From: Trypanosoma brucei
Lineage: Eukaryota
Direction: 5' to 3'
NCBI GenBank assembly: GCA_000002445.1
Contig: CM000208.1
Location: 3,040,001-3,104,000, forward strand
Length of the DNA stretch: 64,000 nt
A program made the translations under genes and the position numbers. The notes beneath the pieces are model-generated. The model worked only from the letters and a program-made list of their open reading frames with translations, did not search any database and was not told where the DNA came from. Position 1 is the first letter of the stretch. Each line of letters starts with the position of its first letter. This document shows positions 44,878-64,000 of this stretch, one piece after another.

Positions 44878-45255
44878 CCCACAGTTGGTCCCCCCTTTAT
44901 TCCTACGGCGCGAGGCCCATTAACGTTAGTGACAACAAACAGTCAGAGAACGCGTGGGGAAAGATATGACAAAGGAAACGACATCAGCAGCACAGTTTTC
45001 AGTTTGAGTCGTGGAAGGGATCCCCAAAAGACAACACATCCTCATTTTCGCATTACAAAATACATCAGGAACACTACGATAAAGGTAAAGTAACACATGG
45101 ACAAAGCACCGCAGGAAAAAAAAAAGAAACAAAACAAAATGCGATACAACGTTTGAAGCATAATCATGACGGCGATGGTTCACCATCTTCGCTTCCTTGG
45201 TTATTGTTAACTAACTGCGAAAATAGATATACTCACGATAACGAAAAGGGGGAAG

Positions 45256-47771: not shown

Positions 47772-47795
47772 TATATATATATATATATATATATA
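47772..47795. repeat. (TA)12 microsatellite
   Basis: Perfect tatata... run in the PKAC to PDE intergenic region. Confidence 0.9.
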
Positions 47796-49226: not shown

Positions 49227-50240
49227 TCAGATCCTCGTGTATTCACCATCGCAAAACCCCGAGAATAACTCCTGCTGTGCCTCAGTCAAAGGTTGAAGTG
49301 GATGGCGAGGACTTTCTGGATAACGATCGAAGTACCTAGTGTCACCATCGTTGTTTAGACGCACGTGAATGGGAGCGGCGACACCTCTCTGTAGGAGAAC
49401 GTTCCAATTAACCCCACTGTAGAACTTGTGTCGCTTAACGTCCTGCACACCACGTTTTACTGACCCAAGGCGTTTCGTTGGTTCAATTGTTAAAAAACTC
49501 TTTATGAGGTCCTTCGCCCGCATCTCCACCCACTTTGGAAACTGAAGTTTCCCCTCTAAAATTTTTTCGTATGTTCTAAAAGGACTCTCGTCGAAAAAAG
49601 GAGGATAACCGACAAGCATCTCATAGAGAAGAATTCCGAGTGTCCACCAATCCACAGCCCGATCGTGACCTTTACTTTGGATTATCTCCGGCGCAAGATA
49701 CTCTGGAGTCCCACATAGCGTGTACGTTCTGTCCCTAACGCGTTTCGCGAACCCAAAGTCCGTAATCTTAATGTTTCCCTGCTTGTCCAAAAGCACATTT
49801 TCTGGCTTCAAGTCACGGTATACGATGCCGCACTCATGAATATATTCAAACGCCAAAACCACTTCTGCGGAGTAGAACTTGGCTACATCATTAGGGAATT
49901 TTCCCGCCTTCCGGAGGTGGGAGAACAGCTCGCCACCCACCACATACTCGAGGAGGAGGTACAATCGGTCATCATCCATAAAACCTTTATACATTGTCAC
50001 AATAAATGGATGGCTCAACTCCTGTAGAATACTCGACTCGGCCAGTATATGGTCTACCTGTTTCATACGCAAAATTTCCTGCTTTTTAAGAATCTTCAAA
50101 ACAACGTATTGTCCAGAAGCCCTGTGTCTACATAGGCGGACGCGCCCAAAAGTACCGGTACCTATTGTCTCTCGGATCTCCAGGTCTTGCAGCTTCCAGC
50201 TGGACACGTCCTTCCTTGTCAGGCACCCATCCGACTTCAT
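49227..50240 (-). CDS. PKAC3: Protein kinase A catalytic-subunit-like AGC kinase (the symbol is from recollection of T. brucei synteny)
   Basis: A 337-aa ORF with an ATG start that I verified. It has the full kinase signature set: GTGTFGRV, VLK, HRDLKPEN, DFG, GTPEYLAPE and DWW. A C-terminal AGC tail ends with FSGF, in the manner of the PKA FSEF hydrophobic motif. Confidence 0.9.
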   Translation of the reverse strand: MKSDGCLTRKDVSSWKLQDLEIRETIGTGTFGRVRLCRHRASGQYVVLKILKKQEILRMKQVDHILAESSILQELSHPFIVTMYKGFMDDDRLYLLLEYVVGGELFSHLRKAGKFPNDVAKFYSAEVVLAFEYIHECGIVYRDLKPENVLLDKQGNIKITDFGFAKRVRDRTYTLCGTPEYLAPEIIQSKGHDRAVDWWTLGILLYEMLVGYPPFFDESPFRTYEKILEGKLQFPKWVEMRAKDLIKSFLTIEPTKRLGSVKRGVQDVKRHKFYSGVNWNVLLQRGVAAPIHVRLNNDGDTRYFDRYPESPRHPLQPLTEAQQELFSGFCDGEYTRI

Positions 50241-50624
50241 TTCCTATCCCTTAGACCCGTAATCGGGACCAAATATGCGCAGGAAGCTAGACTAAAGGTT
50301 TAATAATACCGCCACAGCGGATATTACTCTTTCCTCTCAACAACTTCCCGTTTCGATGAAGCTCGCTTCCCCGTGTCACACCTTTCAATACACGCTGTCC
50401 TGTTACCGTTTCTTTGGAGAGGAGAAAAAAGGAAAAGAGGAAACTGCAGATACCCTCGTCGCCGAAAGCACAATGTTAAGAAGGAGAAGTACTTTATACG
50501 CTAAAAGATATTCTTCATGGGCATGCACGTGACAGACATTTATGAATGTCCTCCGAATGCATTTCTCTCACGGTTTCGAGGGAGAAATCGTCAAACACAG
50601 CATAAAACAAATGAAAGGTATCTT

Positions 50625-53372
50625 TCATCCGAATAATTTGGCCAATCTTACGGCACCCGACTCTTGGACAGAATTCCATCCTTCCTCAATTTGACGCAAA
50701 GCGTCAGTATCCCCTTTTGCTCTGTCCTTCAACTGACTTAACAATTCCGGTTCAGAATGACGGCGACAATCCGCACCCGCCGTTTTCCAATCGCCACAAA
50801 GGACATAGTATTCCATTCTCCATTCTATTTGAGGAATTTTAGGTATGTACTGTTTGGCTTGCTGTCGCTGACAATTGGCAAAAAGTGCTCTCACAAATGC
50901 AAAACCACTAACAGGGGACCTACCTTTGCCTCTAATATCACTTATCTCATCGACAAGATTCCACTGCTTTGTTTCCACAGCTGCTTTTACCATACACCAG
51001 GTATTCATTTTGTCGGAAACTCCAAACTTGTTCTTAATACGATCGGCAACATCCTTGCAACCATGCTCGTGGCAAAGAGTAATTGTTTTTGTGACACTGG
51101 CATCCAAGAAACGACGATCCTTTAGTTTCTTTACCAGATTTTTTTGTTCCTCCATGAGATCCATGTGCAGCCGAAGCCATTTTTCGCTGTCAGAGGGTGG
51201 TCGGAATGAACCTGAAAGCAGCGAGTGGGAGTAAGTGTTCCCACTCAAACCGCCTTTCGAAGGTATATTTACAGTACCCATTGTGCATGACAACAGCGTA
51301 GAGCGCACAATATTAAGCTTGATTACTAGCAAGTCCTCACAACTTTGACCCCCCTCCCCACGTTTACCGGTAGAAACCCTTACCTCCTCGAGGTACCGTA
51401 AAAGATCCAAGTAAGCGCAGTCATCTGGGTATGTCTTAAAGATTTCCATCACTTTACTATTCGTCACTCTCGCTGACTTGGCAAATACGAACAGCATTCT
51501 CCTTGATGTGACGAACTTCTTCAAGAGGGTCAACGCATCACTGCTTTCAGAGGAAATCAAATATTTTATGACCGTAAAAATTAATCCTGTATCACCCGAC
51601 CTTATAGCTTGTCGAAGCCCCTCTTCCAGTTGATTGATTTGCAGCAAGTGAGATATTCTCTCCGATACTGATGTTTCAGCCTCGAGTACAGCAAGAGCCG
51701 CACTTACTTTCTGACTGCGATAAAGTTTAAGCGCAATTTCGCAATATGCAGACTGCTTACAGCACTTTAATTTGTCCACAACTCTGGAGACCAGGCGTCC
51801 CTCATCTGCCTGCGAGACGGAAGAGTTCGTTAACATCAGCATCGCCCACTCCATCATGACATCCTTGGCGCTGAAACCCAGTAACTCACACACATGATAT
51901 GCAAGTTGGTGATAATTCAGCAGTGCGAGTCGCCTTACTAATTTCTCTTTTAATTCTGACAACTGCGCTTGGGATAACAACGTCCCTGCTTTACTCTTGC
52001 ACAACATATTAACCGCTCGGAGGTGCCGAATAACGTCAACGAAAACATCAGATTCGTACATTGCACAAAACGACTTACCGAAGGCTGCTACACGCATCAA
52101 TCGTTTCTGCTGCGATACACTCAACTCGAATTTGGCAGCGGCGATGCAATCGTCCACTGCCTCGGAGAGCCCATGTTTGTCCCTTTGCAAATCACGGATT
52201 ATTTTCACAGAGTTGGCGTTTCCACACATAAACTCATCATATGCCGATAACAACATGGCGGATTTAGCTCGCGATCCCACAGAAAAAATACGTCGTACGG
52301 GCTCGGGTACAACCTGGAGAAATTGATACGAGCGAGCTGAAAGAATCCGCACACCATCGCATTCAGGAACCAGGTGGGCATCGACCGGAATATCGTTGAG
52401 GTAATCTGATTTATCCGGATCATCGACACTGAGTAAACTGAGAGTCGTTGGAAAATTAAGCGCAGCATCGAACTGCTTATTCCGATGCAAGTACGATATG
52501 CACCTATCCCCACACCACATAAACTGAGATGGTATTACATCTGTGTTTATGTTCAAAAGACGTGTGATATCATCAAAAGAACGTGAAGCAACATATACTG
52601 TACCATCACGAACCATAAAAGCCACACTTCGGCCGTTGGGAGAAAGCGCCATATGAACAAAATTCCCACCTTCGATGTAAACACCCAGATCGTGGCACAT
52701 ATACTTTTCGTGAAATACGATATGATAAACGGTCGAAGCGTTTTCCGTTGTAACAAAAGGTACAAAAATCTCGGTATGCCCACTATCGCTAAATCGCGGC
52801 GGTACTGCTAACATTGAACAAGGTTTATTATCATGAAGCAGACGAGGTATTGAAATCGAGACCGCTTCGTACCCCTCAGTACTGCCGCTCTCAACCAGTA
52901 CCAGTCGGAGTTCCTGAAGTCCTACAAGCAAGGCAACACCGGCTTCGGTGCTAGTACATAAAGATGGTACTGGAACCCTCAGAGACGACCCAATAGGTTC
53001 TCCTCTAAAATTAAAAAAACGCAGCGCCCCAGAATTAGAAACGACTATAAGATTATCTTTGGGATAATCCCAACATGCAAACATTAAGTTTGTCATATCA
53101 TCCATATATATTTGCGGAGATAAAGGATGTGGTGTCCCGTTGGCGTTGTAAAGTTTGATAACGCTTCCCCTACTCCCCGAAGAAGATACATTACGATGAT
53201 ACAAGGCCAGTAGTCCACCCGAACGACAATAAGCAATATCATACCTGAAAAAGTCAACGTCCAGTCCCCACAGTAAATCATCAAAGTCAACAAGTCGAAC
53301 TACATTTTCTCGACCAAGAGCTATCCATGCGCCAACCCTTGCAGTTCTCACAAACCTTCTTGGACGTGACAT
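50625..53372 (-). CDS. Vps16, the HOPS/CORVET tethering-complex subunit
   Basis: A 915-aa ORF with an ATG start that I verified. The N-terminal propeller region (YRKxELY-type start, WCGDRCISYL) and the central region align by eye with metazoan VPS16: VPECDGVRILSARSYQFLQVVPEP..RVAAFGKSF...VIRHLRAVNML..LSELKEKLVRRLALLNYHQLAYHVCELLG matches [61 protein letters not shown]. A C-terminal alpha-solenoid is also present. Confidence 0.75.
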   Translation of the reverse strand: MSRPRRFVRTARVGAWIALGRENVVRLVDFDDLLWGLDVDFFRYDIAYCRSGGLLALYHRNVSSSGSRGSVIKLYNANGTPHPLSPQIYMDDMTNLMFACWDYPKDNLIVVSNSGALRFFNFRGEPIGSSLRVPVPSLCTSTEAGVALLVGLQELRLVLVESGSTEGYEAVSISIPRLLHDNKPCSMLAVPPRFSDSGHTEIFVPFVTTENASTVYHIVFHEKYMCHDLGVYIEGGNFVHMALSPNGRSVAFMVRDGTVYVASRSFDDITRLLNINTDVIPSQFMWCGDRCISYLHRNKQFDAALNFPTTLSLLSVDDPDKSDYLNDIPVDAHLVPECDGVRILSARSYQFLQVVPEPVRRIFSVGSRAKSAMLLSAYDEFMCGNANSVKIIRDLQRDKHGLSEAVDDCIAAAKFELSVSQQKRLMRVAAFGKSFCAMYESDVFVDVIRHLRAVNMLCKSKAGTLLSQAQLSELKEKLVRRLALLNYHQLAYHVCELLGFSAKDVMMEWAMLMLTNSSVSQADEGRLVSRVVDKLKCCKQSAYCEIALKLYRSQKVSAALAVLEAETSVSERISHLLQINQLEEGLRQAIRSGDTGLIFTVIKYLISSESSDALTLLKKFVTSRRMLFVFAKSARVTNSKVMEIFKTYPDDCAYLDLLRYLEEVRVSTGKRGEGGQSCEDLLVIKLNIVRSTLLSCTMGTVNIPSKGGLSGNTYSHSLLSGSFRPPSDSEKWLRLHMDLMEEQKNLVKKLKDRRFLDASVTKTITLCHEHGCKDVADRIKNKFGVSDKMNTWCMVKAAVETKQWNLVDEISDIRGKGRSPVSGFAFVRALFANCQRQQAKQYIPKIPQIEWRMEYYVLCGDWKTAGADCRRHSEPELLSQLKDRAKGDTDALRQIEEGWNSVQESGAVRLAKLFG

Positions 53373-53617
53373 AGGTTGGCTAATAAGTTAACAATATTAA
53401 AAATTGGGGGAAAATATTTCTTTAAAAAATTAATTGAACATGCACACCAAATTCAGCTTTTCTTTCAATAACAAACGTGTGTGGAAACAGTACTAATGTA
53501 CAACTCCATTTCATTACATACATTTATAGATACGCATACGTAGTCATAATGTGTAAAATACATCGCAAACATATAGACACGCACTCAATGGTAAATAAAG
53601 AAAAAGCGGTAAGTACG

Positions 53618-55858
53618 TTACTCCCATTCTAGAGGAACAACACAAAAAAGGGTTAAAGAAAACTGCACATCTTCATGTACACACCTAGCGCGAGGAACTA
53701 ATCTATATGATTCCTGAGGCTTCATCGTTACGTCCAAATTGAAAACAACAAGAATATCTGACCTAAACTCCGTTAACCATAAGAGGTCATCACCGCCAGG
53801 ACACAAATAACAAGCACTACGTATTTCCAAGCCAACACCAACGGTTCGTTTGTGGTTTGGTATTTGTGATATTGCCACAACGAAATTTCTAACTGTTATA
53901 TCAGTTTTATTTTTAATCACGAACGACGGGCCCAATTCTGACCCTTTCCTCCACCAGTCCTTAATTGTTTTAAGTTCCGGAGGGGAAAGTGGAACGAAGT
54001 CAAAGCAATCCAAGCACGTTGCGCCCAAGGTACATGGGAAAGGAGCAGAGGAAGACACAGTTACCTGTAACGATTCATTTCCTTTGAGTAACACCACTAA
54101 ACCAACCTCACCACCCTTGGCCTTTTTAGTAGAAAGCAATTCATTTCTGGGACAAACATCACATCTTCGCATTCCCCCCAACCCGTCAGCCGAATATTTG
54201 AAAATATGCAACTGAGTCCATTCATCATGCATTTCATTATCTCTACTAGACGCTCGCACGACCAACACTACCTCTTTCTCCGAATTGCTGTTATTTGAGA
54301 GGAGAAACGAAGGATTACTAGCAAAAGTTGACACAGTATCCGATCCTCCCAGACAACAGCACGGATACTCAATCACATGTCTGTGAATATAGAGTGGATC
54401 ACCGTGAGGCCAGAGAAGTAGGCCAATTCGTTCGAAATACGATATTGCATGCTCTAAGTGCATGCTATTGGATGGAAACTCTACTATACCATCTTTCACC
54501 AAATGTGGAGTAGCGCCGATATATTCAATTGGTTTATCATTCAAGGAAGAAAACCGTACCACACACGTATATCCTGAGTCAGCGTTAGGAGCCTCCACTG
54601 CCGTCAGAAGATAAGGTGTAAACGGAATAATACCAATTTCTTCCAAGCATCTAAAGGCTCTTTCAATCTCCGGATTCGCATGAAACGCAACTATTCTCTT
54701 TTTACGAACACAATCTTTCAAGAATCTGAATATATCAGCTACACTAACATGTTTCTTCAAATTCTTCATTTGAAGTTCAAAGCAGATACCACCGGTCAAG
54801 CACGAGAGGGCATAACCAAGACCAACTCCTGTAATATTTTTGTACCCGCCGTGAAGTTTTGCAAAAGCCTTCTCTACTAAACATCCCCAATAGTCACCAC
54901 TGTTGCTTTCATGGTGAATACCCGCCGGACGATCACCGATCATCGGAATAAAGTCATCAATAACGACCTCTATTGGAGTATCACCGGAAAAAAAACGAAA
55001 TGCGAAGGCTCCTATGCAAGGAAGTTTCCAAATGCAAAGGTTCCTAAGCAAATAAGAAACCTGTTGGACCACACTAAGGGCAGCACGAAGGTTAGAAGTA
55101 TCATTTATTACTGAGGCTACCAATGGTTTGTCACCAACACAGCATTCGTTTTGATCCCTTTGGTCTTCTACAAGAGAGCTCACCCTCACCCACTTTATAT
55201 CACTATTTTTTAAGGCAGTATCAGGCGGGAAACTATTATCTGTAAATGGGGCACCAGATGTAGCTGCGTTGTTCATAATGTCCCTGCAAGACGCATCGCA
55301 TACCTCCGTTGAGCAATGACATGCTCCCATGAAGCAATCCTCATTCCACGATTCCATTCGCCACCTCCAAATTTTTGCTGTCTCTGGAACAACTGCTTTT
55401 CGCCATCGTGTTTGATTTACTTCCCACTGCATTCTATTTATCTCCGTCTGCAAATGTATTGCATATTCAACCTCACTTGATAAACCAGTGCCAGACAAGT
55501 CGACAACGTGTAACCCTGCACAGGCAACAGCCAAATCCTTTAATGCAGCACCGGACGTGTTATCTAAGTGTACGTTGCACAATACGAGACGTGTAACCGA
55601 ACTGCTTCTCAGAACAGCAAAAAGACGTACTAACTGATCGGTTGGTACTTGCATCCCACTGACATCTAACACCTCAATCTCAGACCGCCTTTCAAGAAAA
55701 TGAATGACACAATCGAAAAATTTGGACGAATAGACATACCTGCTGAGATTCAGTTCGTTGGGAGATTTTTCCAAACCTTCCAGCAAATCTGAGTATACTT
55801 TACAACCCAACCACTCAGAGATATACCGGTACTCCTCAGCCACACTAATTATTTCCAT
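53618..55858 (-). CDS. Calpain-like (C2 family) protein with an N-terminal leucine-rich-repeat region; the catalytic Cys appears to be substituted
   Basis: A 746-aa ORF with an ATG start that I verified. It is the first gene of the minus-strand PTU. The N-terminal 150 aa are LRR-like (LDVSGMQVP..LVLCNVHLDNTSGAALKDLA..LHVVDLSGTGLS). Calpain core motifs follow: GDTPIEVVIDDFIPM, YWGCLVEKAFAKLHGGYKNI and GYALSCLTGGI. The position that aligns with GDCW reads GDKP, so Cys is replaced by Lys. Confidence 0.65.
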   Translation of the reverse strand: MEIISVAEEYRYISEWLGCKVYSDLLEGLEKSPNELNLSRYVYSSKFFDCVIHFLERRSEIEVLDVSGMQVPTDQLVRLFAVLRSSSVTRLVLCNVHLDNTSGAALKDLAVACAGLHVVDLSGTGLSSEVEYAIHLQTEINRMQWEVNQTRWRKAVVPETAKIWRWRMESWNEDCFMGACHCSTEVCDASCRDIMNNAATSGAPFTDNSFPPDTALKNSDIKWVRVSSLVEDQRDQNECCVGDKPLVASVINDTSNLRAALSVVQQVSYLLRNLCIWKLPCIGAFAFRFFSGDTPIEVVIDDFIPMIGDRPAGIHHESNSGDYWGCLVEKAFAKLHGGYKNITGVGLGYALSCLTGGICFELQMKNLKKHVSVADIFRFLKDCVRKKRIVAFHANPEIERAFRCLEEIGIIPFTPYLLTAVEAPNADSGYTCVVRFSSLNDKPIEYIGATPHLVKDGIVEFPSNSMHLEHAISYFERIGLLLWPHGDPLYIHRHVIEYPCCCLGGSDTVSTFASNPSFLLSNNSNSEKEVVLVVRASSRDNEMHDEWTQLHIFKYSADGLGGMRRCDVCPRNELLSTKKAKGGEVGLVVLLKGNESLQVTVSSSAPFPCTLGATCLDCFDFVPLSPPELKTIKDWWRKGSELGPSFVIKNKTDITVRNFVVAISQIPNHKRTVGVGLEIRSACYLCPGGDDLLWLTEFRSDILVVFNLDVTMKPQESYRLVPRARCVHEDVQFSLTLFCVVPLEWE

Positions 55859-58800
55859 TTAATTACTTCCTTTGCGTTTTGAAAGCGAATATTGAGGACA
55901 TAAAGAGGGAGAGAAAGTACCGTAAGCACAACACGCCACTCCCGGCCCAGGGATAACAGAAACTATATTCATCAATTGAAAAGTAGATATCAAAGGTTTC
56001 AATGTCCCCCAGAGTCAGAGTAGAAGCAAGCCGTTGCGGGTGTCAACGGCGCTGGTAACGCAAACAAGTAAAAGCGAAAAAATCACGTCCCTATCGCAGT
56101 CACCCTCCCCCCCCCCCCCCGCAAAAAAAAAAAAAACGTCAAGATCGGCCGCGCGTTGAGACAAGGCAAATAAACTAAACATGGGAAAAGAAAAATTTGT
56201 AGAAGCAAATGAAAACGCACCGCACACGAGCGGTGCAGAAGTACAGAGGTAGCTGGTAAAGAAAAGAAGTGACGCCGGAACGCGCGCCGCCATAGGCTAA
56301 GTAACAGCCCCCTCCACACAACCCATCTCGTGGACCGCAACGGCGCCCCGGCTGCAACGACCACGACCAGGCGCACCACGATCGGACACCCCGCCGAGGA
56401 AAGAAAACAAGGGGCCCCTACACAGCCTCGCCGCAGTAATCCGGAAATGCGCAGCAACCAACCGTCGCAGAGAAGGTTCCATTGCCCAACTCCGCCGCTA
56501 GAAGGGGGAAGGGAAAGAAACACGTAACGCCGCGCCAGTTCAGCTCTTTAGAGGGCCCAAACGGTATGGTCAAAGGAAAACCTGCTACGGGGAAGAGATT
56601 GACAGACGGTTGGTAACTGTCTCGACCTGTTCATTTCGGCTGCGTGTTACCCAAAGGGAGGCGGTACATATTCGGGTAACTGCCAGTCGTTATGTGGTTT
56701 CCGAGGTTTGTAGAAGGAGGAGGCCGAAACGGTATCAGCTACGTTACCGATTTGTGGTCGGTGAGCCGCCAATCCTGCGTTTGCTTGTCTTCGTAGGTCG
56801 CCAACATTTTCAACATCGACTTTGACACACCTTGCTCAGCTACGAGTCTGTTGGTGACTGGACTACGCGACCTCGGCGGTTGAAAGCGAAGGTGAACACT
56901 GGGGCGGGTAAATAAAAGAAGGTCAACTCCCGGACGTGGGCAGGCGGGTCGTTAACTTCGGCCGGTTTGTTAGCAGTTGTGGCGCTACTGTTTAAACAAG
57001 TGGAGGGGTGTGAGACGACACCGCGCACCCAACCATGGGAGGAGTACATCGGTGGAAAGCAGACCCAAAGCGCTTACCGACATTGTGAGAAAGCGATGTC
57101 AAGAGAGGGGAACGAGTGACAGTGCCCACAAACTTTTCATCTCTTTCATTGGCTTCAAAAAAAAAAAAACAAAAAAGGGTCCTCTCAGAGTAAAGGGAAA
57201 GACTACGCAATCAGTATGGACCAATATGATAAGATCAACTGTAAGGAAGAAACCCCGACGGAGGCAACCTGATGCCACAACAAACTTCGGCGTGGAAGAC
57301 GGGAATCATTACGGCTCCGAAAGGGTGGAAGGGAAGTGAAGAGGGAAACAGTTTGAGAGTGATTAAGAAGCTACATCATGCCGTTGTGAACCCGTGGGTT
57401 ACACCCCACTCCCGGTGGTGACTTCTTCAGAACGAAAGGAAATAATTGTTTAGTTGTGAACAGGGGAAATTGAGTTAGTCGGTTGTCAAACGTGCGCAGC
57501 AGTGGAAAATGGGTTGTACGGCAAAAAATGAAGACAGTGTTCCAGAGATAACACGGGCAATTCCCCCAAATCACACCTAACAACACTGTCAATGATTCCT
57601 GCTTATTCACCAGGAAACGACGTCAACACCACGAGCAATTCGACACATGGGTCTGATAATGTCCTCAAGGCACTACACTGTATAATAATGGAACGGCTCA
57701 GCAACTAACCTCATGATAAAGATCAAAAAGTGGGAAAGAAGGGCAGCATTTGAACGGCTAAAAATAACAAATAAGGTAAAAGACACAAGGGGAACCACAG
57801 TTGCGACATCTGTGTTGTGGCTTTTTGAAAGAGACAAATTGCACTTTGGAAAGCGACTCCCGTGTGGTTTGATTCAGCCTCTTCACGCCCCTTTGCGTAC
57901 GTATATGAGGAGCTTGGATGCGTTGTGAGAAAGCGGTGCAACTTTGAAGAGTGTGATACGGACGACAACTTATCAGCTACTCGAAAAGCTCGTAATGTCC
58001 ATAACAAAAATAAATCCAGCGTATATTGAGACAGGAACGGTAAACACCCCAATGGAAACGGGAAGGGAAATGGATGCACAAAGGTTAGTGTCTTGTGTTA
58101 GCTTCCGGATTCGCAACGGGGACAACGTCGGCGAGGTAGTAGCGCACAGAATTGCAAAACGTTTAGTGAAGCAGTACGCGTCGTATGAAGGTGGCACCTG
58201 TTATCCAGGATATGATGTACCACGCTTGGTGGATGTGGATTTGTTCGTTACGGTTCACGATTGGACAAGAGGAAGAGGCTTTGGTGGTTGGATCCGAAGG
58301 TATTATAATTTATGAGGGCGGACTCGAATAAATAGCTGGCTCGGGTTTCTTAAAGGTAGTTAAGTCATACACACTAAACACGTGGAAAGGATCCGGAGCC
58401 GCATCTGGTCGTAACAGCATCATCGTCAAAGCGCATGTTATCGAACTTCACCATCTGTACGGCGGGTTGCGTGGCGGTGAAGTAAACACGTAACTGCCAT
58501 GACAGACAAAGCTGGTAACGCCAGAGGTTCCAGCATACCCTTCCCTCATTGTCTGTCTGGGGATGCTGTGAAGAGTGCAACCACTTGCTCCTTAATTTGT
58601 GCTGCTGCATTCATTGGTTATACAATGCCATCGTTGTTAGGTGAGGTTGAAATGTTAACAATGTGATGCGTAGCAATGTGAACAGAAAGTGCCCTTACAT
58701 CGCCGACGAAACTGAAAAGGTTTGGAGTGCACGTCTGATTTCTTTACACCCCAGTACACCGTCAGGTACGTGGTTCACGTTGGAATGGGAAGGGGCGGCG

Positions 58801-60763
58801 AAATGGCGAGGCATTTTTGTAATCTTAACGGACCTTGTACGTTTACTGTCTTCGTATTCGCGAGAATACACAACGTTACTTTACAAGTTATTGCGCGGCA
58901 GAAAGAATGATGTTGAAGCAAAGTGGCGCGGATCGTGCACCCACGAAACGGTGGGGACACGGAACTTTCCAGTTCTACGACGCAGCTTCATGTAAGCGAT
59001 GAGGGAGTAGCTTCATCCCCCTCTAGTAAGTGTGGACCTTCAGGCGATATATTCTTACCTTCACCGACGTTCGGGATGAGGACGGCGGTGTGGACATTCT
59101 GACACGGGTGACCCGGTGGTATTGACGGCTCACAATCAAAAGTTAGGGTTTAGTTGTGCTATGAACAGGATGCACAAAAAATGTGCGGGAAAGGTGGCGT
59201 TTGCCGACTTTCATTTGTACTATAAGTGAGTCTGCTCTGCGAGAGGTGAGTCTATGGGAGCAATGTCCTGTTGTTTCGCGGAGGGCGCCATATTTTTTGC
59301 GCTTGTCATTGTGGACCGATGGTGTCACAGTCACTGCACATATACCCTCTGACTTAACAGCACGGAGAGTCACTTACGTACCGGATTATATGCCACATGT
59401 TTGCCGTGCGGTAGTCGCCTTTACGTCACCTTTTATTTTCATGCTTTGCTTTCCGTTGGCACACCGCTGCTTGCCCCATGGCATATTCTGTGGATTTGTT
59501 GGGAGATGAGACAGGCTTGTGCCCAGACAAACGTACCGTATTTGAAGTCCAACCTTCTATTCAGACAGATAATACTCGCCATCAGCTTACCGAAGTGATG
59601 TTAACTGATGAGTTTCGGTGTAGGGCTGTGTTTTTTATTCAGAGAGTTGAAGTGCAATTTGTGTGTCAGGGGCGCCGTTTTCATACCCTGTACATATCGC
59701 AAAGGTGGGTGGATGGAAATGATTATTTTTTTTCTTTGATGCAAAGGAGCACACTTTGTTCTAGTCGTATCACGCGTAGGTGTGCAGAGGTTACGTTTGA
59801 AGCATATTACCCAGTTCGTAAAGCACGCTGAAGACATTGAAACACACATCACCAGCTATGTTGATTGACACCACCAGTAGACAAAGCTGACCACTGCGCG
59901 TGAACACTTTTTCGCACATGCCAAATTCTTTAACTATAATACCTATGAGGACGCGGTGTGTTTAGCTTAGTGGTAGTTTATGGAAGAGGGGGGCCATGCT
60001 TGTAGGAAATGCTACTTGGTAGTTCGTGTGAAGGCTGTAAAGCTCGTGCAGTTGAGCTGATTGCCAACGGTGTACTGATGCTACGTCAGCGGTGAGTAAA
60101 TACTGTTTTATTCGATACTTCTATGTTTCAAGGGAGTTTCTGCTGGATGGTAGTTTTTCACATTTTTTACTTTCCTTTCCTACACACGAAGTTTACTGTT
60201 GTTGGGAAGCAACTATCACGTGCATCGCCGTGGTTATATAAATGTTGTGTGCATTGGAAGTGGTTGCCCAAACTCCCTCACTACATGAAGGAGGAGGCAT
60301 GCGTCCTTAGTAAACCCCGAAACACTTGCCTGTCGACGTGCTTCGCGTGACGTGAAGAGGGAGTTTATGTCGGTCGTCTGCCCTCTCCCTCGGGGCCCGA
60401 CCTGAAATGATGCTGGGGATGTTTAGTATTTCTTTGCTTCTGTACAGTTTTCTATACGTGTACACCCTTCGTCGCGACGGGCCCCACATGTTTGAGCACA
60501 GCTATTGCAGTCCAGAAAGCCCTGTCGCGTTGCATGACTCTCACTACCCCCTGGCATAAAATACTACCAACAGTGTGTTTTCCTCTCTGTCTTTTAGGGC
60601 ATAGCAGTTTCGAGCCATACAAATCCTTTTAGCTGCCACCGCGCGTTGACGGGGCTACCGCTGCAAGACACTGCAACGACACACATATACAAATATATAT
60701 ATCACAACCTCCTGATCTAGGAAACGGTTCCCTGGTGACTGCAACTGGATAAATCCTTCCGCC
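55859..60763. promoter_or_regulatory. Divergent strand-switch region between the minus-strand and plus-strand PTUs: a candidate RNA polymerase II bidirectional transcription-start region
   Basis: Coding polarity flips here: all the genes to the left are on the minus strand and the adenylate cyclase to the right is on the plus strand. There is no long ORF. The region contains the C14/A14 homopolymer pair and a GC-rich island. Confidence 0.7.
56107..56136. repeat. C14-GC-A14 homopolymer pair (G14 and T14 on the minus strand) at the edge of the strand-switch region
   Basis: The sequence is cccccccccccccc gc aaaaaaaaaaaaaa, about 250 bp upstream of the first minus-strand gene. Confidence 0.9.
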
Positions 60764-63700
60764 ATGAAAGCACCAGCCTTGCTGTTGTTTTTACTGTCAG
60801 CATGTGCCGCATCGCCGCCGACGAGGGAAGCCGGGGGTGTACAAGTAACCGTGACAATTGTGTCTCTGATGTACAGTAAAAACTGGCCTGCTGAGTACAT
60901 CAACGCTGTCAATGCTGGTTTTAACGCATCCCTGGCCGCGCGGAACTGGGTGGTAGCGCCTGGGGTTAATGTTTCGGTAGTTCCACCCCCGTCGTACGAC
61001 ACCCCAGCATATCAGCACCTGGAGAAGTACTTAGAAAATGTAAAGGACGATAACAGCAGTATGGTGGTTGTGTTGGGTCCCATGGGCGAAGAGAGCAGCT
61101 TTGCCTCGTATGATACCCTGAAGAAACACGGTCTTGTCGGATTCGCTCCTATGACTGGGGCTGCGGGTTTTGAGACTTACCTTCCACACCTCTATTTTCT
61201 TCGCCCTGGTTTTACGGGTGAACTCATAGCCCTTATCCGTTATGCCGTGACTTACCTGCGCGTTCTCCGGTTGGGGTTTACCTACCTTGAAGGTATGATG
61301 GGGGGTACTACCACATACGAGAATGCTGTGGACTTTTTGTCACGCATGGGATACACGTTTTGTTGTATTTTCACAGTGCACGGGACAGCCGAAAGGCGGA
61401 CGGTAACAGGTAGGGAGTTCGATGTGGCATGGAACGAGTTTGCCGGGAAACTTCCACAGGCTGTTATTGTTGTTGCTACTGTAAATGATGAAATAAAGAA
61501 TTTTGTCAAGAACCTTGTGGCTGATCCACGCACCGCGGATGCGTACCTGTTGGCTCCCTCACTAATGCAGAAGTCGATCGTGACAGTATGGAAGGAGGCA
61601 TTGGAAGCTGCAAATGCCACTTTTGTCCCTCGTCGCGTAATCCAGACAGGCACCAACCCACTTGCCAACGACACAGACAGTCGTGCCATTAGTCGCTTTC
61701 AAGGTGAGATGCGGGATTATCTTACGGCATATGGGGAATGGGCCGGTGTCGACGACGCAGAGTGCTTCCTCAAGGACGACGCAGAGGGAGAACTGATGGT
61801 TGCTGGTTGGCTCGCTGGAGAGGTGCTATCGCAAGCTCTACGGAGCCATGGATGGATGAACAATCGCACAGCTTTCATGGAGTCGCTCTACGAGCAACGC
61901 CGTTACGTCGTTGACAACATCGTTATTGGTGACTTTGGAGGTAGTTGTGAGGACAATTCTACTGATAGCGGTGCCATCTGCCAGTGCAACCGCGGCGGTA
62001 GGAAGGTATACATGAAGGAGATTGCAGAGGGCTACCGACTAAGACCGCTTGTTGGCGGCTACATCGTACAGTCCCAACTGGAGTGTAATAGTGATCCTGC
62101 AATCCTGCAGCCGCCGCTCAGCGGACTCGCCATCCTCATAAATGATCGCCAGGAGCTTACGAGGGCTGTGAAACAGTTTAAAATTGGCACGTCTGCCGTA
62201 TCTGCAGATGGCGAAGACGATGACGTGGACAGGCTTGTCATTCAGGTATTTGACACAAAGGCGCATACCGCTTTCGACGATCTCAAGGCGCTGCAACAGA
62301 GGAAAATTTTAACTGCTTTGTTCGGTGTCGTAACTGAGTCGTTGTTAGAACTCTCAAACGTGACATTCATTGACCCAATGGTGCCAACGCCTCATTTAAA
62401 CACTTTCAACAGGAATGTGATCCGCCTGTCGCCAACATTGGAGCAGCAGCTTTATGTACATGCGACCTACCTGTCTAGCATCCGTGCTGTTAATGTCCAC
62501 TGTATTGTCAGAAGCAACGAAGCGGCTCGCATCATCGACGTGCTTAGGAAGACGTTGATTACCTTTGGTCTGAATCTCAGTTCCACAAAAGTATTGGAGG
62601 CCAGGACCACGATTAGGGGGAATCTACCGACAAGGGGCAGTGTATTTCTCATTGGGCTCGTCGGCACTGACATTGCGGCAATTGAAGAACACCTCCGCAC
62701 ACACGAGAGGACTCTTATATTTGTCCAGTATTCTGACATCGCGTTGCTATACAATGAGTTTGTGCAAACATTTAACAACACTCATACTGCCGAACGTCTT
62801 GTGTTCGCAACAAGTTTACCGCACTGGGCAGACGCCAACACGACATCGGAGACTGTGCGACGGTTCCAGGACGTTATATCTGATGTGGCGCTACGGACAC
62901 CGCTGTCACTGTTGGGTTTTGCCACTGGCAGGTTGATGCAGAGGAACTTGCAGCGTATGCCCAAGGTGACCCCTGAACTCCTGTCCGACCTCTTCTTCGA
63001 AGAAACAGTGATCACTGTCGACGACATGCGCTATGGACCATTCAGGCACTACGATTGCGTAATCAACGATGTCGTTACCGAGGATAATTGTATAACAAAT
63101 TTTGGTGCGGCGGACATCAGTGTGTGGTCGATGGCGCGTGCGCTACGACCACATGAGCCAGTACTGCAGGAAGCGATGTTTCCGTCGATGAAGTATAACG
63201 TTCCTAATGGTAACGCCCTCACCCCCGCACAACTTGCTGGCGTAATCGGTGGGACCTCGGCAGCCCTGTTCCTCCTTTTGGGGCTTGGCGTGCTATTGTA
63301 CTTCGTCCTTCGCGATGGTCGCGACAACGACAACGCGCCCAAGGAACCAACAGACCCGGTGACGCTCATCTTCACCGATGTCGAGAGTAGCACTGCGCTG
63401 TGGGCTGCTCACCCCGAACTGATGCCGGAGGCCGTCGCAGCTCACCACAGCATGATCCGCTCGCTGATTTCCCGTCACGGATGCTACGAGGTGAAGACGG
63501 TTGGGGATTCGTTCATGATAGCCTGCAAGAGCCCAACAACCGCAGTCAAGCTTGTGCTCGACTTACAGGTGATGTTCATGCAGTACGACTGGGGCTCTTC
63601 TGTGTTCGACGATTCGTACCGCGAGTTTGAGTTGCGTAAGGCGGATGATGTCGACGGTTACGCCCCACCAACCGCGCTCCTTGACAGCGCAACGTACGGG

Positions 63701-64000
63701 CAGTACTGGAACGGGCTGCGAGTGCGAGTTGGTGTGCACACCGGGTTGTGTGATATTAGACATGATGAAGTGACGAAGGGTTACGATTATTACGGGCAGG
63801 TTCCCAACCTTGCTGCGCGGACGGAAAATGTGACGAACGGCGGGCAGGTGCTGCTAACGCACGCGATGTACCTTGCACTCAGCACCGCAGAACGTGAGGA
63901 ATTTGACGTGACCCCATTGGGTGAAGTACCGTTGCGTGGTGTGCCGGAGCCTGTTGTAATGTACCAGCTGAACGCCGTTCCCGGCCGCTCTTTTTCTGCA
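60764..64000 (+). CDS. Receptor-type adenylate cyclase (GRESAG4-like), partial; the 3' end lies beyond the right edge
   Basis: ATG at 60764. It starts with a signal peptide (MKAPALLLFLLSACAAS) and a large extracellular periplasmic-binding-protein-like domain. A single transmembrane segment follows (GVIGGTSAALFLLLGLGVLLYFVL). The class III cyclase catalytic domain has PVTLIFTDVESSTALW...YEVKTVGDSFMIA...RVGVHTG...GYDYYGQVPNLAARTE. The ORF track omits it because it has no stop inside the window. Confidence 0.88.
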   Translation, partial: MKAPALLLFLLSACAASPPTREAGGVQVTVTIVSLMYSKNWPAEYINAVNAGFNASLAARNWVVAPGVNVSVVPPPSYDTPAYQHLEKYLENVKDDNSSMVVVLGPMGEESSFASYDTLKKHGLVGFAPMTGAAGFETYLPHLYFLRPGFTGELIALIRYAVTYLRVLRLGFTYLEGMMGGTTTYENAVDFLSRMGYTFCCIFTVHGTAERRTVTGREFDVAWNEFAGKLPQAVIVVATVNDEIKNFVKNLVADPRTADAYLLAPSLMQKSIVTVWKEALEAANATFVPRRVIQTGTNPLANDTDSRAISRFQGEMRDYLTAYGEWAGVDDAECFLKDDAEGELMVAGWLAGEVLSQALRSHGWMNNRTAFMESLYEQRRYVVDNIVIGDFGGSCEDNSTDSGAICQCNRGGRKVYMKEIAEGYRLRPLVGGYIVQSQLECNSDPAILQPPLSGLAILINDRQELTRAVKQFKIGTSAVSADGEDDDVDRLVIQVFDTKAHTAFDDLKALQQRKILTALFGVVTESLLELSNVTFIDPMVPTPHLNTFNRNVIRLSPTLEQQLYVHATYLSSIRAVNVHCIVRSNEAARIIDVLRKTLITFGLNLSSTKVLEARTTIRGNLPTRGSVFLIGLVGTDIAAIEEHLRTHERTLIFVQYSDIALLYNEFVQTFNNTHTAERLVFATSLPHWADANTTSETVRRFQDVISDVALRTPLSLLGFATGRLMQRNLQRMPKVTPELLSDLFFEETVITVDDMRYGPFRHYDCVINDVVTEDNCITNFGAADISVWSMARALRPHEPVLQEAMFPSMKYNVPNGNALTPAQLAGVIGGTSAALFLLLGLGVLLYFVLRDGRDNDNAPKEPTDPVTLIFTDVESSTALWAAHPELMPEAVAAHHSMIRSLISRHGCYEVKTVGDSFMIACKSPTTAVKLVLDLQVMFMQYDWGSSVFDDSYREFELRKADDVDGYAPPTALLDSATYGQYWNGLRVRVGVHTGLCDIRHDEVTKGYDYYGQVPNLAARTENVTNGGQVLLTHAMYLALSTAEREEFDVTPLGEVPLRGVPEPVVMYQLNAVPGRSFSA

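What the first reader, a model, noticed from the sequence alone, without database searches (positions are those of the whole stretch)
57200..60700. About 3.5 kb non-coding segment upstream of the adenylate cyclase, different in composition from every other spacer; a possible degenerate element, pseudogene or long structured leader
Every other intergenic region in the window is AT-rich and low-complexity, with homopolymers, microsatellites and strong purine/pyrimidine strand asymmetry. This block has balanced base composition and high sequence complexity. It contains many ORFs of 60-120 aa in mixed frames on both strands that look like decayed coding sequence (57944-58315, 58663-58995, 59183-59509, 59478-59831). 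I recognise none as a known domain. Candidates are a degenerate retroposon (ingi/RIME/DIRE/SIDER-type), an RHS/ESAG-like pseudogene remnant of the kind often found near GRESAG4 genes, or a conserved GRESAG4 5' region.
Basis: seen in the sequence. Interest (0 to 1): 0.5.

Follow-up and report, generated by a model that had tools for sequence, protein, structure and literature searches.

The report
Duplicated non-coding block at strand switch
The flagged 3.5 kb is non-coding DNA where two Trypanosoma brucei gene arrays start in opposite directions, and most of it is a second copy of the region upstream of a related adenylate cyclase gene on chromosome 7, not a decayed retroposon or pseudogene.

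Summary
The window is T. brucei TREU927 chromosome 10, about 3,040,001-3,104,000. The flagged block lies in the 4.9 kb gap (55859-60763) between 22 minus-strand genes ending with a calpain-like gene and the plus-strand receptor adenylate cyclase ACP4. This is a divergent strand-switch region, listed by Kolev et al. 2010 as a start of Pol II transcription in both directions.

- **Coding and RNA tests:** there is no Pfam domain in any frame, no Rfam or tRNA hit, no excess RNA structure and no coding-type constraint. The ORFs are no longer than chance.
- **Composition:** GC is not an outlier. The block is poorer in low-complexity tracts than most spacers.
- **Main new result:** window 57246-60380 is 94.5% identical to the region upstream of a paralogous cyclase on chromosome 7 (presumably ACP3). 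The two cyclase coding sequences are only 63-75% identical.
- **Gene conversion:** site patterns are mosaic. This explains why the chromosome 10 alleles differ by about 5% here against about 1% in the flanks.
- **Transcript:** window 58641-60404 (+) is a published low-abundance spliced, polyadenylated transcript, Tb10.NT.185.

Its "conserved GRESAG4 5' region" idea is supported. Interest is moderate.

The parts
55859..60763 (.). Divergent strand-switch region: the whole gap between the calpain-like gene's ATG (minus strand) and the cyclase ATG (plus strand).
   Evidence: All 22 long ORFs left of it are on the minus strand and the cyclase is on the plus strand. The window-wide minimum of cumulative keto skew is at 57799, of G-C at 56496 and of T-A at 58525. 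Kolev 2010 Table S14 lists Tb10.389.0470 and Tb10.389.0430 as first ORFs of 'Divergent' Pol II units.
53618..55858 (-). Calpain-like cysteine peptidase, first gene of the minus-strand polycistron (Tb10.389.0470, inferred to be Tb927.10.13030).
   Evidence: Pfam Peptidase_C2, E = 1e-18. The cluster members are T. brucei calpain-like peptidases on chromosome 10.
55859..57245 (-). Chromosome-10-specific half of the gap. It is purine-rich on the plus strand, which means polypyrimidine tracts and G/T richness on the minus strand. Presumed leader and initiation side of the minus-strand polycistron.
   Evidence: Nine purine tracts of 12 nt or more in 1.34 kb. Plus-strand G+T fraction falls to 0.333 at 56101-56400, below the window's 1st percentile. 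No usable homology to chromosome 7 (35-57%).
56103..56137 (-). Homopolymer tract, read on the minus strand as T14-G-C-G14. It is length-polymorphic and coincides with an assembly gap in T. equiperdum OVI.
   Evidence: Sequence, runs, N-run in L005 and indels in L004/L006 at this place. G- and T-rich 10-mers on the coding strand are the reported feature of T. brucei start regions (PMC5579346).
56869..57164 (+). Weak (72%) homology to the chromosome 7 locus, left of the high-identity block.
   Evidence: blastn, 72.4% over 301 nt, E = 3e-39.
57246..60380 (+). High-identity paralogous block shared with the upstream region of the chromosome 7 cyclase.
   Evidence: blastn against L007 8574-11723: 94.5% over 3151 nt. 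By 250-nt windows identity is 86-87% at 57251-57750 and 94-99.6% at 57751-60500. Logan contigs of the chromosome 7 copy lose homology to chromosome 10 at the same left edge, 57246.
60381..61000 (+). Continuation of the duplicate through the cyclase 5' UTR and first 237 nt of coding sequence, at 89-95% identity. Beyond 61000 the coding sequences are 63-75% identical.
   Evidence: The apparent 635-nt insertion in L007 is an assembly gap of Ns flanked by identical 255-nt copies.
58641..60404 (+). Published novel transcript Tb10.NT.185 (1763 nt, 0.21 RNA per cell in procyclic forms), trans-spliced and polyadenylated.
   Evidence: Kolev 2010 Table S7: Tb927_10_v4 3098641-3100404, plus strand. The coordinate offset of 3,040,000 comes from two poly(A) sites. 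The paper states that RNAs lacking a spliced leader or a poly(A) tail were excluded from this list.
58639..58640 (+). AG splice-acceptor dinucleotide directly upstream of the mapped 5' end of Tb10.NT.185, preceded by a T-rich stretch.
   Evidence: Sequence. Conserved in all four copies.
60573..60597 (+). Predicted polypyrimidine tract plus AG acceptor of the cyclase mRNA, giving a 5' UTR of about 166 nt. It lies 193 nt downstream of the Tb10.NT.185 poly(A) site.
   Evidence: Sequence GTGTGTTTTCCTCTCTGTCTTTTAG. Conserved in all four copies. This is a prediction and was not mapped here.
60764..64000 (+). Receptor-type adenylate cyclase (Tb10.389.0430, inferred to be Tb927.10.13040, ACP4). It runs off the window.
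   Evidence: Pfam Peripla_BP_A-cyclase, E = 3e-138, and Guanylate_cyc, E = 1.5e-39. Kolev Table S6 names it. ACP4 identifier from PMC9481589.
57995..58315 (+). ORF A (106 aa from the ATG), annotated 'hypothetical protein, unlikely' in T. b. gambiense. It is open in all four copies but unconstrained.
   Evidence: Variable sites by codon position are 4/4/6 and pN/pS is 0.4-1.4. Its only homologues are its own alleles and paralogue.
58666..58995 (+). ORF B (109 aa), first ORF of Tb10.NT.185, annotated 'hypothetical protein, unlikely' in T. b. gambiense. Unconstrained.
   Evidence: Variable sites by codon position are 8/3/8 and pN/pS is 0.46-1.2. Its cluster holds only the chromosome 10 and chromosome 7 copies.
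60126..60380 (+). Near-invariant island inside the block, with few variable sites among the four sequences.
   Evidence: 177 nt (60146-60322) are invariant among the chromosome 10 alleles. Identity to chromosome 7 is 98.8-99.6% at 60001-60500. Only 60135, 60145, 60200, 60323 and 60372 vary in the span.

Best explanation
The block is non-coding DNA in a divergent strand-switch region of T. brucei chromosome 10. RNA polymerase II starts here in both directions: leftwards into the polycistron that begins with the calpain-like gene, and rightwards into a one-gene unit, the cyclase ACP4.

- **Why it looks different.** Other spacers are UTRs and RNA-processing signals (polypyrimidine tracts, poly(A) regions) inside one polycistron. 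This block is neither.
- **What it is.** From about 57246 rightwards it is one copy of an old segmental duplicate (upstream region plus cyclase gene). The other copy precedes the paralogous cyclase on chromosome 7, presumably ACP3. Repeated gene conversion between the chromosomes has kept the upstream 3.2-3.8 kb at 94-99% identity, while the cyclase coding sequences drifted to 63-75%.
- **Allelic divergence.** The same exchanges make the chromosome 10 alleles of different strains differ by about 5% in a mosaic pattern.
- **Transcription.** Rightward transcription starts upstream of 58641. The stretch 58641-60404 is released as a rare spliced, polyadenylated RNA with no conserved ORF. Its poly(A) site is coupled to trans-splicing of the cyclase mRNA about 190 nt downstream.

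**Shown:** the strand switch, the skews, the absence of coding or RNA-family signal, the duplication, the mosaic pattern, and the published transcript and unit tables.

**Inferred:** where initiation occurs, gene conversion as the cause of the high identity, the cyclase splice site, and the ACP3 and Tb927.10.13030 identities.
For: **Locus identity**
- Gene order is PDE, 337-aa kinase, Vps16, calpain-like, gap, cyclase.
- Cluster members lie on TREU927, DAL972 and T. b. equiperdum chromosome 10.
- Two poly(A) sites in Kolev 2010 fit a window offset of exactly 3,040,000. An AG lies directly before the mapped 5' end of Tb10.NT.185.

**Strand switch and start region**
- Gene strands.
- Cumulative skew minima fall inside the gap.
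- Plus-strand G+T is 0.33 next to the minus-strand gene and 0.51-0.59 across 58.0-60.4 kb.
- G/T runs switch strand near 57.7 kb.
- Kolev Table S14 lists both units as 'Divergent' and the cyclase as a one-ORF unit.
- Coding-strand G/T richness and 5-10 kb divergent regions are the published properties of such regions (PMC5579346; PMC11796357).

**Non-coding**
- Pfam six-frame search found nothing. Rfam and tRNA searches found nothing.
- No homologues beyond its own alleles and paralogue.
- ORF lengths match chance.
- No third-position excess, and ORFs are broken in other alleles.
- No excess RNA structure.

**Duplication and conversion**
- 94.5% identity over 3151 nt to chromosome 7.
- The identity profile is 94-99.6% in the block against 63-75% in the coding sequence, and pS is 0.25 in the cyclase N-terminus.
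- Site patterns are ABBB 91, ABBA 61, AAAB 48 and ABAB 19. They form 109 runs against 175.5 +/- 6.9 expected.
- Divergence within each haplotype group is not raised.

**Transcripts**
- Tb10.NT.185 on chromosome 10, and the 4.9 kb Tb7.NT.111 ending about 310 nt before Tb927.7.7470 on chromosome 7.
Against: - No chromatin or 5'-triphosphate RNA track for this locus could be read. The start-region assignment rests on a published table and on base composition.
- On chromosome 7 the homologous block lies between two genes of one unit (Tb927.7.7480 to Tb927.7.7470). The block is therefore not a start region by nature.
- The roughly 5% allelic divergence also covers 55900-57245, where chromosome 7 offers no template. 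Conversion from chromosome 7 does not explain all of it.
- The near-invariant island at 60126-60380 and the high identity overall could reflect purifying selection rather than conversion.
- The T. brucei genome could not be searched at the DNA level. The count of two copies is a lower bound based on annotated ORFs.
- The plus strand has a mild excess of stop-free frames (p = 0.02).
Confidence: 0.75

Rival explanations
1. The block's high identity between chromosomes 7 and 10 is kept by selection, because it is a functional module. It could be a shared promoter and/or a long non-coding RNA (Tb10.NT.185 / Tb7.NT.111) that controls the two procyclic-form cyclases ACP3 and ACP4.
For: - The block is 94-99.6% identical while the adjacent coding sequences are 63-75% identical and synonymous divergence in the cyclase N-terminus is 0.25.
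- There is a near-invariant island at 60126-60380.
- Both copies give spliced, polyadenylated RNAs with homologous 3' ends.
- The splice AG and poly(A) region are conserved in all copies.
- ACP3 and ACP4 are both reported as up-regulated in procyclic forms (PMC7719234).
Against: - Outside the island the copies differ by 4-6% with no sign of constraint.
- The mosaic site patterns are the signature of exchange, not of uniform constraint.
- There is no excess RNA structure.
- Tb10.NT.185 is very rare, at 0.21 copies per cell.
- Such upstream RNAs are expected by-products of coupled splicing and polyadenylation (PMC2936537).
Confidence: 0.15
2. The block is the decayed remnant of a protein-coding gene (an RHS/ESAG-like or other T. 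brucei-specific pseudogene) that was duplicated together with the cyclase.
For: - The plus strand has 14 stop-free frames of 60 aa or more, against 8.5 +/- 2.4 in local shuffles (p = 0.02).
- Four plus-strand ORFs of 108-123 aa are strung over 57.9-59.8 kb.
- Codon-usage scores of two of them reach the mean of true genes.
Against: - No Pfam domain in six frames at E <= 1.
- No homologue among 5.8 billion proteins beyond its own alleles and paralogue.
- No tblastn similarity to cyclase, trans-sialidase-like or retroposon proteins.
- The longest ORF equals chance.
- Substitutions are even over codon positions.
- Stop-free windows score well on codon usage by construction.
Confidence: 0.06
3. The block is a degenerate retroposon of the ingi clade (DIRE, RIME or SIDER) inserted next to the cyclase.
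For: - Strand-switch regions do collect retroposons. The syntenic T. vivax region carries an RVT_1-containing element on the far side of the gap.
- An A13CA6 run lies at 57157-57176.
- The sequence exists in at least two places.
Against: - No reverse-transcriptase, endonuclease or zinc-finger remnant.
- No similarity to the T. vivax element's ORFs.
- The A-run lies outside the high-identity block, on the wrong side for a plus-strand element.
- No A or T run at either block edge.
- Homology to the other copy fades gradually on the left (97%, then 86%, then 72%) and continues into the cyclase gene on the right. That is how a duplicated segment behaves, not an insertion.
Confidence: 0.03
4. The block is a long, structured 5' leader of the cyclase mRNA.
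For: It lies upstream of the cyclase on the same strand and is transcribed in that direction.
Against: - A separate RNA ends at a poly(A) site at 60404.
- A conserved polypyrimidine tract plus AG at 60573-60597 predicts a 5' UTR of about 166 nt.
- Folding z-scores average 0.18 on the plus strand, with none below -2.1.
- No Rfam hit.
Confidence: 0.03

Closest known systems
Divergent strand-switch regions / Pol II transcription start regions of T. brucei (Siegel 2009; Kolev 2010; Wedel 2017)
   Same: - It lies between two head-to-head transcription units and is about 5 kb long.
- It has no canonical promoter motif.
- Each coding strand is G/T-rich and the skew flips inside the region.
- The first downstream gene is preceded by a polyadenylated upstream RNA.
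- It is listed as 'Divergent' in Kolev's table of units.
   Different: - One arm is a one-gene unit holding a lineage-specific cyclase.
- About two thirds of the region is a paralogous duplicate of an intergenic region inside a unit on chromosome 7, so that sequence is not specific to start regions.
- Chromatin marks were not examined here.
Concerted evolution by gene conversion in T. brucei multigene families (tandem arrays, GRESAG4/ESAG families, segmental duplicates)
   Same: - Paralogous copies show mosaic shared tracts.
- The copies are as similar to each other as alleles are.
- Assemblies break at the repeat: the OVI contig ends inside it, and gambiense chromosome 7 has a gap inside it.
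   Different: - The homogenised part is the non-coding upstream region. The coding sequences have diverged to 63-75%.
- The partners are on different chromosomes and are single copies, not an array.
Novel or long non-coding transcripts of T. brucei (Kolev 2010 'NT' transcripts; later lncRNA catalogues)
   Same: - Spliced-leader acceptor and poly(A) site are mapped.
- Abundance is low.
- There is no conserved ORF.
- It sits directly upstream of a protein-coding gene.
   Different: No function is known. On chromosome 10 only the right 1.76 kb is in the RNA, whereas on chromosome 7 a 4.9 kb RNA spans the whole spacer.
ingi / RIME / DIRE / SIDER retroposons
   Same: The sequence is kilobase-sized, present more than once and located in a strand-switch region.
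   Different: - No coding remnant, no terminal A-run and no sharp ends.
- Only two copies were detected, both in the same position and orientation relative to a cyclase gene.
- The homology continues into that gene.

Membership tests
Divergent strand-switch / Pol II transcription start region (T. brucei) | [quoted passage not shown] | tested here: met
   22 minus-strand genes end at 55858 and the plus-strand cyclase starts at 60764.
Divergent strand-switch / Pol II transcription start region (T. brucei) | G/T richness on each coding strand, with the skew switching inside the region. | tested here: met
   Plus-strand G+T is 0.33 at 56101-56400 and 0.51-0.59 at 58.0-60.4 kb. Cumulative skew minima are at 56496, 57799 and 58525. 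G/T runs switch strand.
Divergent strand-switch / Pol II transcription start region (T. brucei) | Experimental evidence of initiation (5'-triphosphate RNA, upstream polyadenylated RNA). | tested here: met
   From the literature only. Kolev 2010 Table S14 lists both flanking units as 'Divergent', and Table S7 gives the upstream transcript. No read-level data were seen.
Divergent strand-switch / Pol II transcription start region (T. brucei) | Enrichment of H2A.Z/H2B.V, H4K10ac and Pol II. | not testable with these tools
   No ChIP-seq tracks are available.
ingi-clade retroposon (ingi, RIME, DIRE, SIDER) | Remnant of reverse transcriptase, endonuclease or zinc finger (ingi, DIRE). | tested here: not met
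   Six-frame Pfam search gave no family at E <= 1 except a chance HPr-kinase match at E = 0.18. tblastn with the T. vivax element's ORFs gave E >= 0.049.
ingi-clade retroposon (ingi, RIME, DIRE, SIDER) | 3' A-run and target-site duplication at sharp ends. | tested here: not met
   There is no A or T run at 57246 or at 60380-61000. Identity decays gradually on the left and continues into the cyclase gene on the right.
ingi-clade retroposon (ingi, RIME, DIRE, SIDER) | Conserved 79-nt 5' signature and match to the element consensus. | not testable with these tools
   No kinetoplastid repeat library is available.
RHS / ESAG-like pseudogene | Detectable similarity to RHSP, ESAG, VSG or cyclase domains. 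| tested here: not met
   Pfam; tblastn with cyclase and trans-sialidase-like proteins.
Paralogous GRESAG4 upstream region homogenised by gene conversion | Homologous sequence in the same position and orientation upstream of another receptor cyclase gene. | tested here: met
   Window 57246-60380 matches L007 8574-11723 at 94.5%, and the cyclase follows in both.
Paralogous GRESAG4 upstream region homogenised by gene conversion | Mosaic of tracts with conflicting relationships among alleles and paralogue. | tested here: met
   109 runs of site patterns against 175.5 +/- 6.9 in permutations. Examples are the tracts 57432-57497 (ABAB), 58519-58761 (ABBB) and 59023-59343 (ABBA).
Paralogous GRESAG4 upstream region homogenised by gene conversion | Copy number and donor copies across the whole genome. 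| not testable with these tools
   No DNA search of a T. brucei genome is possible. ORF-based searches find only the chromosome 7 and chromosome 10 copies.
Processed non-coding transcript (lncRNA-like) | Mapped spliced-leader acceptor and poly(A) site. | tested here: met
   Kolev 2010 Table S7. AG at 58639-58640.
Processed non-coding transcript (lncRNA-like) | No ORF under coding constraint. | tested here: met
   Variable sites by codon position are 4/4/6 and 8/3/8, against 6/4/19 in the cyclase N-terminus. ORF D is disrupted in three of the four copies.
Protein-coding gene | Conserved ORF with homologues, or an excess of synonymous change. | tested here: not met

The most novel reading that the evidence does not exclude
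The block is a portable cis-regulatory module that travels with, and is kept identical between, the two procyclic-form flagellar-tip cyclase genes ACP3 and ACP4. It could be an initiation zone, a non-coding RNA, or both. On chromosome 10 it supplies a private promoter for a one-gene unit. This would be gene-specific Pol II control in an organism thought to lack it, and the near-invariant 255 nt at 60126-60380 would be its core.
Probability: 0.12. Interest if true: 0.75.

Novelty: new member of a known kind. Interest (0 to 1): 0.4.

Why it matters

The part I did not find described in the papers I read is this. A 3.2 kb non-coding stretch upstream of ACP4 is far more similar to the stretch upstream of ACP3 on another chromosome than the two cyclase genes are to each other. 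It shows clear tracts of inter-chromosomal exchange.

This matters in three modest ways:

- **Polymorphism.** It explains a local spike of "allelic" divergence (about 5% against about 1%) that could be misread as a mutation hot spot or as balancing selection.
- **Read mapping and assembly.** It warns that short reads and assemblies are unreliable here. One assembly breaks inside the block and another has a gap in it.
- **An experiment.** It offers a natural test of whether sequence upstream of a trypanosome gene can carry promoter or regulatory function, because the same block sits at a start region on chromosome 10 and inside a transcription unit on chromosome 7.

Tried and rejected
- **RNA and repeat searches that found nothing.** Rfam at E <= 1 over 55000-64000 and ARAGORN over the window. 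Tandem repeats gave only the A-run and two trivial hits. Repeats shared with the rest of the window gave none touching the block.
- **Failed look-ups.** Exact-protein look-ups of the window's calpain-like and Vps16 proteins, the TREU927 678-aa version and the T. congolense orthologue returned nothing. The window's own genome record is therefore not retrievable, and T. congolense synteny could not be checked.
- **A false negative.** A search with the 14 longest stop-free frames joined by X spacers found no homologues. T. b. gambiense does hold three annotated "unlikely" ORFs here. The composite query probably spoiled the word filter.
- **More distant species.** Comparison with the syntenic T. 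vivax and T. melophagium loci showed no similarity to the gap. The calpain-like gene is the first gene of its unit there too, and no cyclase lies within 10 kb.
- **Mutation hot spot, considered and rejected.** Divergence within each haplotype group is not raised in the gap.
- **Replication origin, considered.** The four early origins on chromosome 10 are at 0.80, 1.25, 1.92 and 2.65 Mb, not at 3.10 Mb. ORC binding here is unknown.
- **Insertion in the chromosome 7 copy.** It is an assembly gap.
- **Papers not held.** Cordon-Obras 2022 and Siegel 2009 could not be read. Their promoter motif and G-tract statements were therefore not tested.

Full report
**1. Where the window comes from**

The long ORFs left of 55858 are all on the minus strand. 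Pfam identifies, in order:
- a cyclic-nucleotide phosphodiesterase (45256-47124)
- a 337-aa protein kinase (49227-50240)
- Vps16 (50625-53372)
- a calpain-family peptidase (53618-55858)
- on the plus strand from 60764 to the window's end, a trypanosome receptor-type adenylate cyclase

The calpain-like protein is 99% identical to a cluster whose named members are the chromosome 10 proteins of T. b. brucei TREU927, T. b. gambiense DAL972, T. b. equiperdum and T. equiperdum.

In the supplements of Kolev et al. 2010 (PMC2936537), the poly(A) site of Tb10.389.0510 (a phosphodiesterase) is at 3,085,049 with a 207-nt 3' UTR. That of Tb10.389.0490 is at 3,087,404 with a 1,823-nt 3' UTR. Both fit the window exactly if window position x equals Tb927_10_v4 position 3,040,000 + x.

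Published identifiers Tb927.10.13000 (PDEA), Tb927.10.13010 (PKAC3) and Tb927.10.13040 (ACP4) follow the same gene order. That the calpain-like gene is Tb10.389.0470 (Tb927.10.13030) is inferred from this order.

**2. Checking the observation**

The gene-free stretch is real and is larger than stated: 55859-60763, 4,905 nt, the longest spacer in the window.
- **Low-complexity tracts.** The flagged block 57200-60700 is poor in them. It holds five purine or pyrimidine tracts of 12 nt or more in 3.5 kb, where most spacers have 2-8 per kb. It also has few homopolymers.
- **GC content.** At 0.469 it is not exceptional. Other spacers run from 0.31 to 0.49. A few other spacers also lack low-complexity tracts.
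- **ORFs.** The longest stop-free frame (138 aa) equals the shuffle mean (135.7 +/- 27.5). The number of frames of 60 aa or more is mildly raised, 26 against 18.8 +/- 3.0. With shuffles that keep local composition, only the plus strand stands out, 14 against 8.5 +/- 2.4, p = 0.02.

**3. Not coding, not a known RNA, not a retroposon remnant**

- Six-frame translations of the whole gap, with stops masked, hit no Pfam family at E <= 1 apart from one chance match at E = 0.18. That excludes recognisable reverse transcriptase, endonuclease, RHS, ESAG, VSG or cyclase remnants.
- tblastn with the two cyclases, the chromosome 7 trans-sialidase-like protein and the ORFs of a T. vivax retroposon found nothing.
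- Rfam and tRNA searches were empty.
- Sliding-window folding gave mean z-scores of 0.18 and 0.02 on the two strands, no different from coding controls.

T. b. gambiense annotates three ORFs here as "hypothetical protein, unlikely". Their only relatives in 5.8 billion proteins are their own alleles and one paralogue each.

Across four copies, variable sites fall 4/4/6 and 8/3/8 over codon positions in the two best-kept ORFs, against 6/4/19 in the first 237 nt of the cyclase. pN/pS runs from 0.4 to 1.4. Another ORF is frameshifted in three of the four copies.

**4. A divergent strand-switch region**

- The window-wide minima of cumulative G-C, keto and T-A skews fall at 56496, 57799 and 58525, all inside the gap.
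- The plus-strand G+T fraction drops to 0.33 at 56101-56400, next to the minus-strand gene. That is below the window's first percentile. It stays at 0.51-0.59 from 58.0 to 60.4 kb, upstream of the plus-strand gene.
- Runs of G/T change strand near 57.7 kb.

[quoted passage not shown] Divergent regions of 5-10 kb with two oppositely oriented promoters are the norm (PMC11796357).

Kolev's Table S14 lists Tb10.389.0470 as the first ORF of a minus-strand 'Divergent' unit. It lists Tb10.389.0430, the cyclase, as a plus-strand 'Divergent' unit consisting of that one ORF.

The left 1.4 kb of the gap (55859-57245) carries nine purine tracts, which are polypyrimidine tracts on the minus strand. It also carries a T14-G-C-G14 tract on that strand. 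The low-complexity signals that mark ordinary spacers are RNA-processing signals, and the core of a start region does not need them.

**5. A published transcript inside the block**

Kolev's Table S7 lists Tb10.NT.185 at 3,098,641-3,100,404, plus strand, 1,763 nt, 0.21 RNA per cell. In window coordinates that is 58641-60404.
- An AG sits at 58639-58640, directly before the mapped 5' end, after a T-rich stretch. It is conserved in all copies.
- The paper states that RNAs lacking a spliced leader or a poly(A) tail were left out of this list.
- The poly(A) site lies 193 nt upstream of a conserved polypyrimidine tract plus AG at 60573-60597. I take this as the cyclase acceptor. It is a prediction and gives a 5' UTR of about 166 nt.

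Rightward transcription must therefore begin upstream of 58641. The block is not part of the mature cyclase mRNA.

**6. The block is a second copy**

The gambiense "unlikely" ORFs have paralogues on chromosome 7. The locus fetched there (L007, FN554970.1 2,184,135-2,204,464) carries, on one strand, a trans-sialidase-like gene, the same small ORFs, and a 1,205-aa receptor cyclase.

blastn aligns window 57246-60380 to L007 8574-11723 at 94.5% over 3,151 nt. Window 56869-57164 aligns at 72%, and the cyclase region at 75%. An apparent 635-nt insertion in L007 is a run of Ns flanked by identical 255-nt copies, so it is an assembly gap.

With the assembly gap removed, identity in 250-nt windows runs as follows:

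| Window region | Identity to chromosome 7 |
|---|---|
| Left of 57000 | 35-57% |
| 57001-57250 | 75% |
| 57251-57750 | 86-87% |
| 57751-60500 | 94-99.6% |
| 60501-61000 | 89-92% |
| Rest of the cyclase coding sequence | 63-75% |

Synonymous divergence in the cyclase N-terminus is about 0.25, against about 0.05 per site in the block.

Two Logan contigs are the chromosome 7 copy (99.8%). They lose homology to chromosome 10 at the same left edge.

By position, strand and gene order, the chromosome 7 cyclase is presumably Tb927.7.7470 (ACP3). Kolev lists a 4,900-nt novel transcript, Tb7.NT.111 (3.39 RNA per cell), ending about 310 nt before its ATG. The homologous poly(A) site is therefore used on both chromosomes.

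On chromosome 7 the block lies inside a two-gene unit (Tb927.7.7480 to Tb927.7.7470), not at a strand switch.

**7. Gene conversion and the allelic spike**

Against T. b. gambiense and T. b. equiperdum chromosome 10, the window differs as follows:
- 0-1.4% per 500 nt from 44000 to 55500, including a 2.1 kb spacer
- 2.6-8.9% from 56000 to 60999
- 0.2-2.0% further into the cyclase

The genome-wide figure for TREU927 against DAL972 is 1.16% (PMC2854126). T. equiperdum OVI is 99.6-99.9% identical to the window, and its contig ends inside the block.

Divergence within each haplotype group is not raised. Window against OVI shows 4 substitutions in about 1,960 nt. Gambiense against T. b. equiperdum gives 0.19% once one 65-nt patch is set aside. 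A plain mutation hot spot is therefore unlikely.

In the block, TREU927-chr10, gambiense-chr10 and gambiense-chr7 are roughly equidistant, at 94.4-96.4%. Site patterns (window, gamb10, bequi10, gamb7) are ABBB 91, ABBA 61, AAAB 48 and ABAB 19. They occur in runs: 109 runs against 175.5 +/- 6.9 in permutations. Stretches where the window groups with chromosome 7 alternate with stretches where gambiense chromosome 10 does. This is the signature of repeated exchange between the two loci.

Two things are not explained by this. The 5% allelic divergence in 55900-57245 has no template on chromosome 7. The near-invariant island at 60126-60380 also remains unexplained.

**8. Synteny**

In T. vivax and T. 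melophagium the calpain-like gene is also the first gene of its unit, with a 3-4 kb gap upstream. No cyclase lies within 10 kb. T. vivax has an RVT_1-bearing retroposon there. The cyclase and its upstream block therefore look like a lineage-specific arrival at an old strand switch. This is an inference.

**9. Verdict**

The block is non-coding start-region DNA, and two thirds of it is a conversion-homogenised paralogue of the ACP3 upstream region.
- The retroposon, RHS-pseudogene and structured-leader readings fail their tests.
- The "conserved GRESAG4 5' region" reading passes.
- The start region and the transcript are already in the literature. I did not find the duplication or the exchange described in the papers I read.
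- The most novel reading still open is that the block is a shared regulatory module for two procyclic-form cyclases. I give it about 0.12.

Noticed in passing
window 45256-64000: Three cAMP-pathway genes sit within 19 kb: phosphodiesterase PDEA, the PKA catalytic subunit-like kinase PKAC3 and the receptor cyclase ACP4. Only Vps16 and a calpain-like gene lie between them. The first two are also neighbours in T. vivax and T. melophagium.
   Followed up: partly
window 55900-57245: The TREU927/OVI haplotype differs from the gambiense/T. b. equiperdum haplotype by about 5% in the chromosome-10-specific part of the gap too. The chromosome 7 copy cannot have been the donor there, and divergence within each group is not raised.
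   Followed up: partly
window 60126-60380 and 59460-59655: These are near-invariant islands inside a block that otherwise differs 4-6% between copies. The first is 98.8-99.6% identical to chromosome 7 and lies just upstream of the Tb10.NT.185 poly(A) site.
   Followed up: partly
window 56103-56137: A C14 run followed by an A14 run (T14-G-C-G14 on the minus strand), about 250 nt upstream of the calpain-like ATG. It is length-polymorphic in gambiense and T. b. equiperdum, and T. equiperdum OVI has an N-gap at the same place.
   Followed up: partly
window 57432-57497: In this 65-nt patch gambiense chromosome 10 matches gambiense chromosome 7, while T. b. equiperdum chromosome 10 matches the window (17 consecutive ABAB sites). 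It looks like a discrete recent conversion tract.
   Followed up: yes
window 60764-64000 and Kolev Table S14: The cyclase is listed as a transcription unit of one ORF (Tb10.389.0430), followed by a minus-strand unit. No cyclase lies next to the calpain-like gene in T. vivax or T. melophagium, which suggests a lineage-specific insertion at an old strand switch.
   Followed up: partly
window 47125-49226: This 2.1 kb spacer, the second longest clean one, is mostly the 3' UTR of the PKAC3-like kinase. Kolev gives 1,586-1,823 nt, with its poly(A) site at window 47404.
   Followed up: yes
L001 1262-5837 (T. vivax, syntenic locus): A retroposon-like set of minus-strand ORFs (RVT_1, faint C2H2 zinc finger) lies on the far side of the gap upstream of the T. 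vivax calpain-like gene. It shows no similarity to the T. brucei gap.
   Followed up: partly
L007 11724-12103; L005 start; L006 1-10000: Assembly and annotation artefacts occur at the repeat. Gambiense chromosome 7 has an N-gap flanked by identical 255-nt copies. The T. equiperdum OVI contig ends inside the block, at window position about 57853. The T. b. equiperdum record has no gene called for the cyclase.
   Followed up: yes
window 53618-55858: The calpain-like protein is annotated as 678 aa in TREU927 and T. b. equiperdum but 746 aa in gambiense and T. equiperdum. The 746-aa ATG is open in the window.
   Followed up: no
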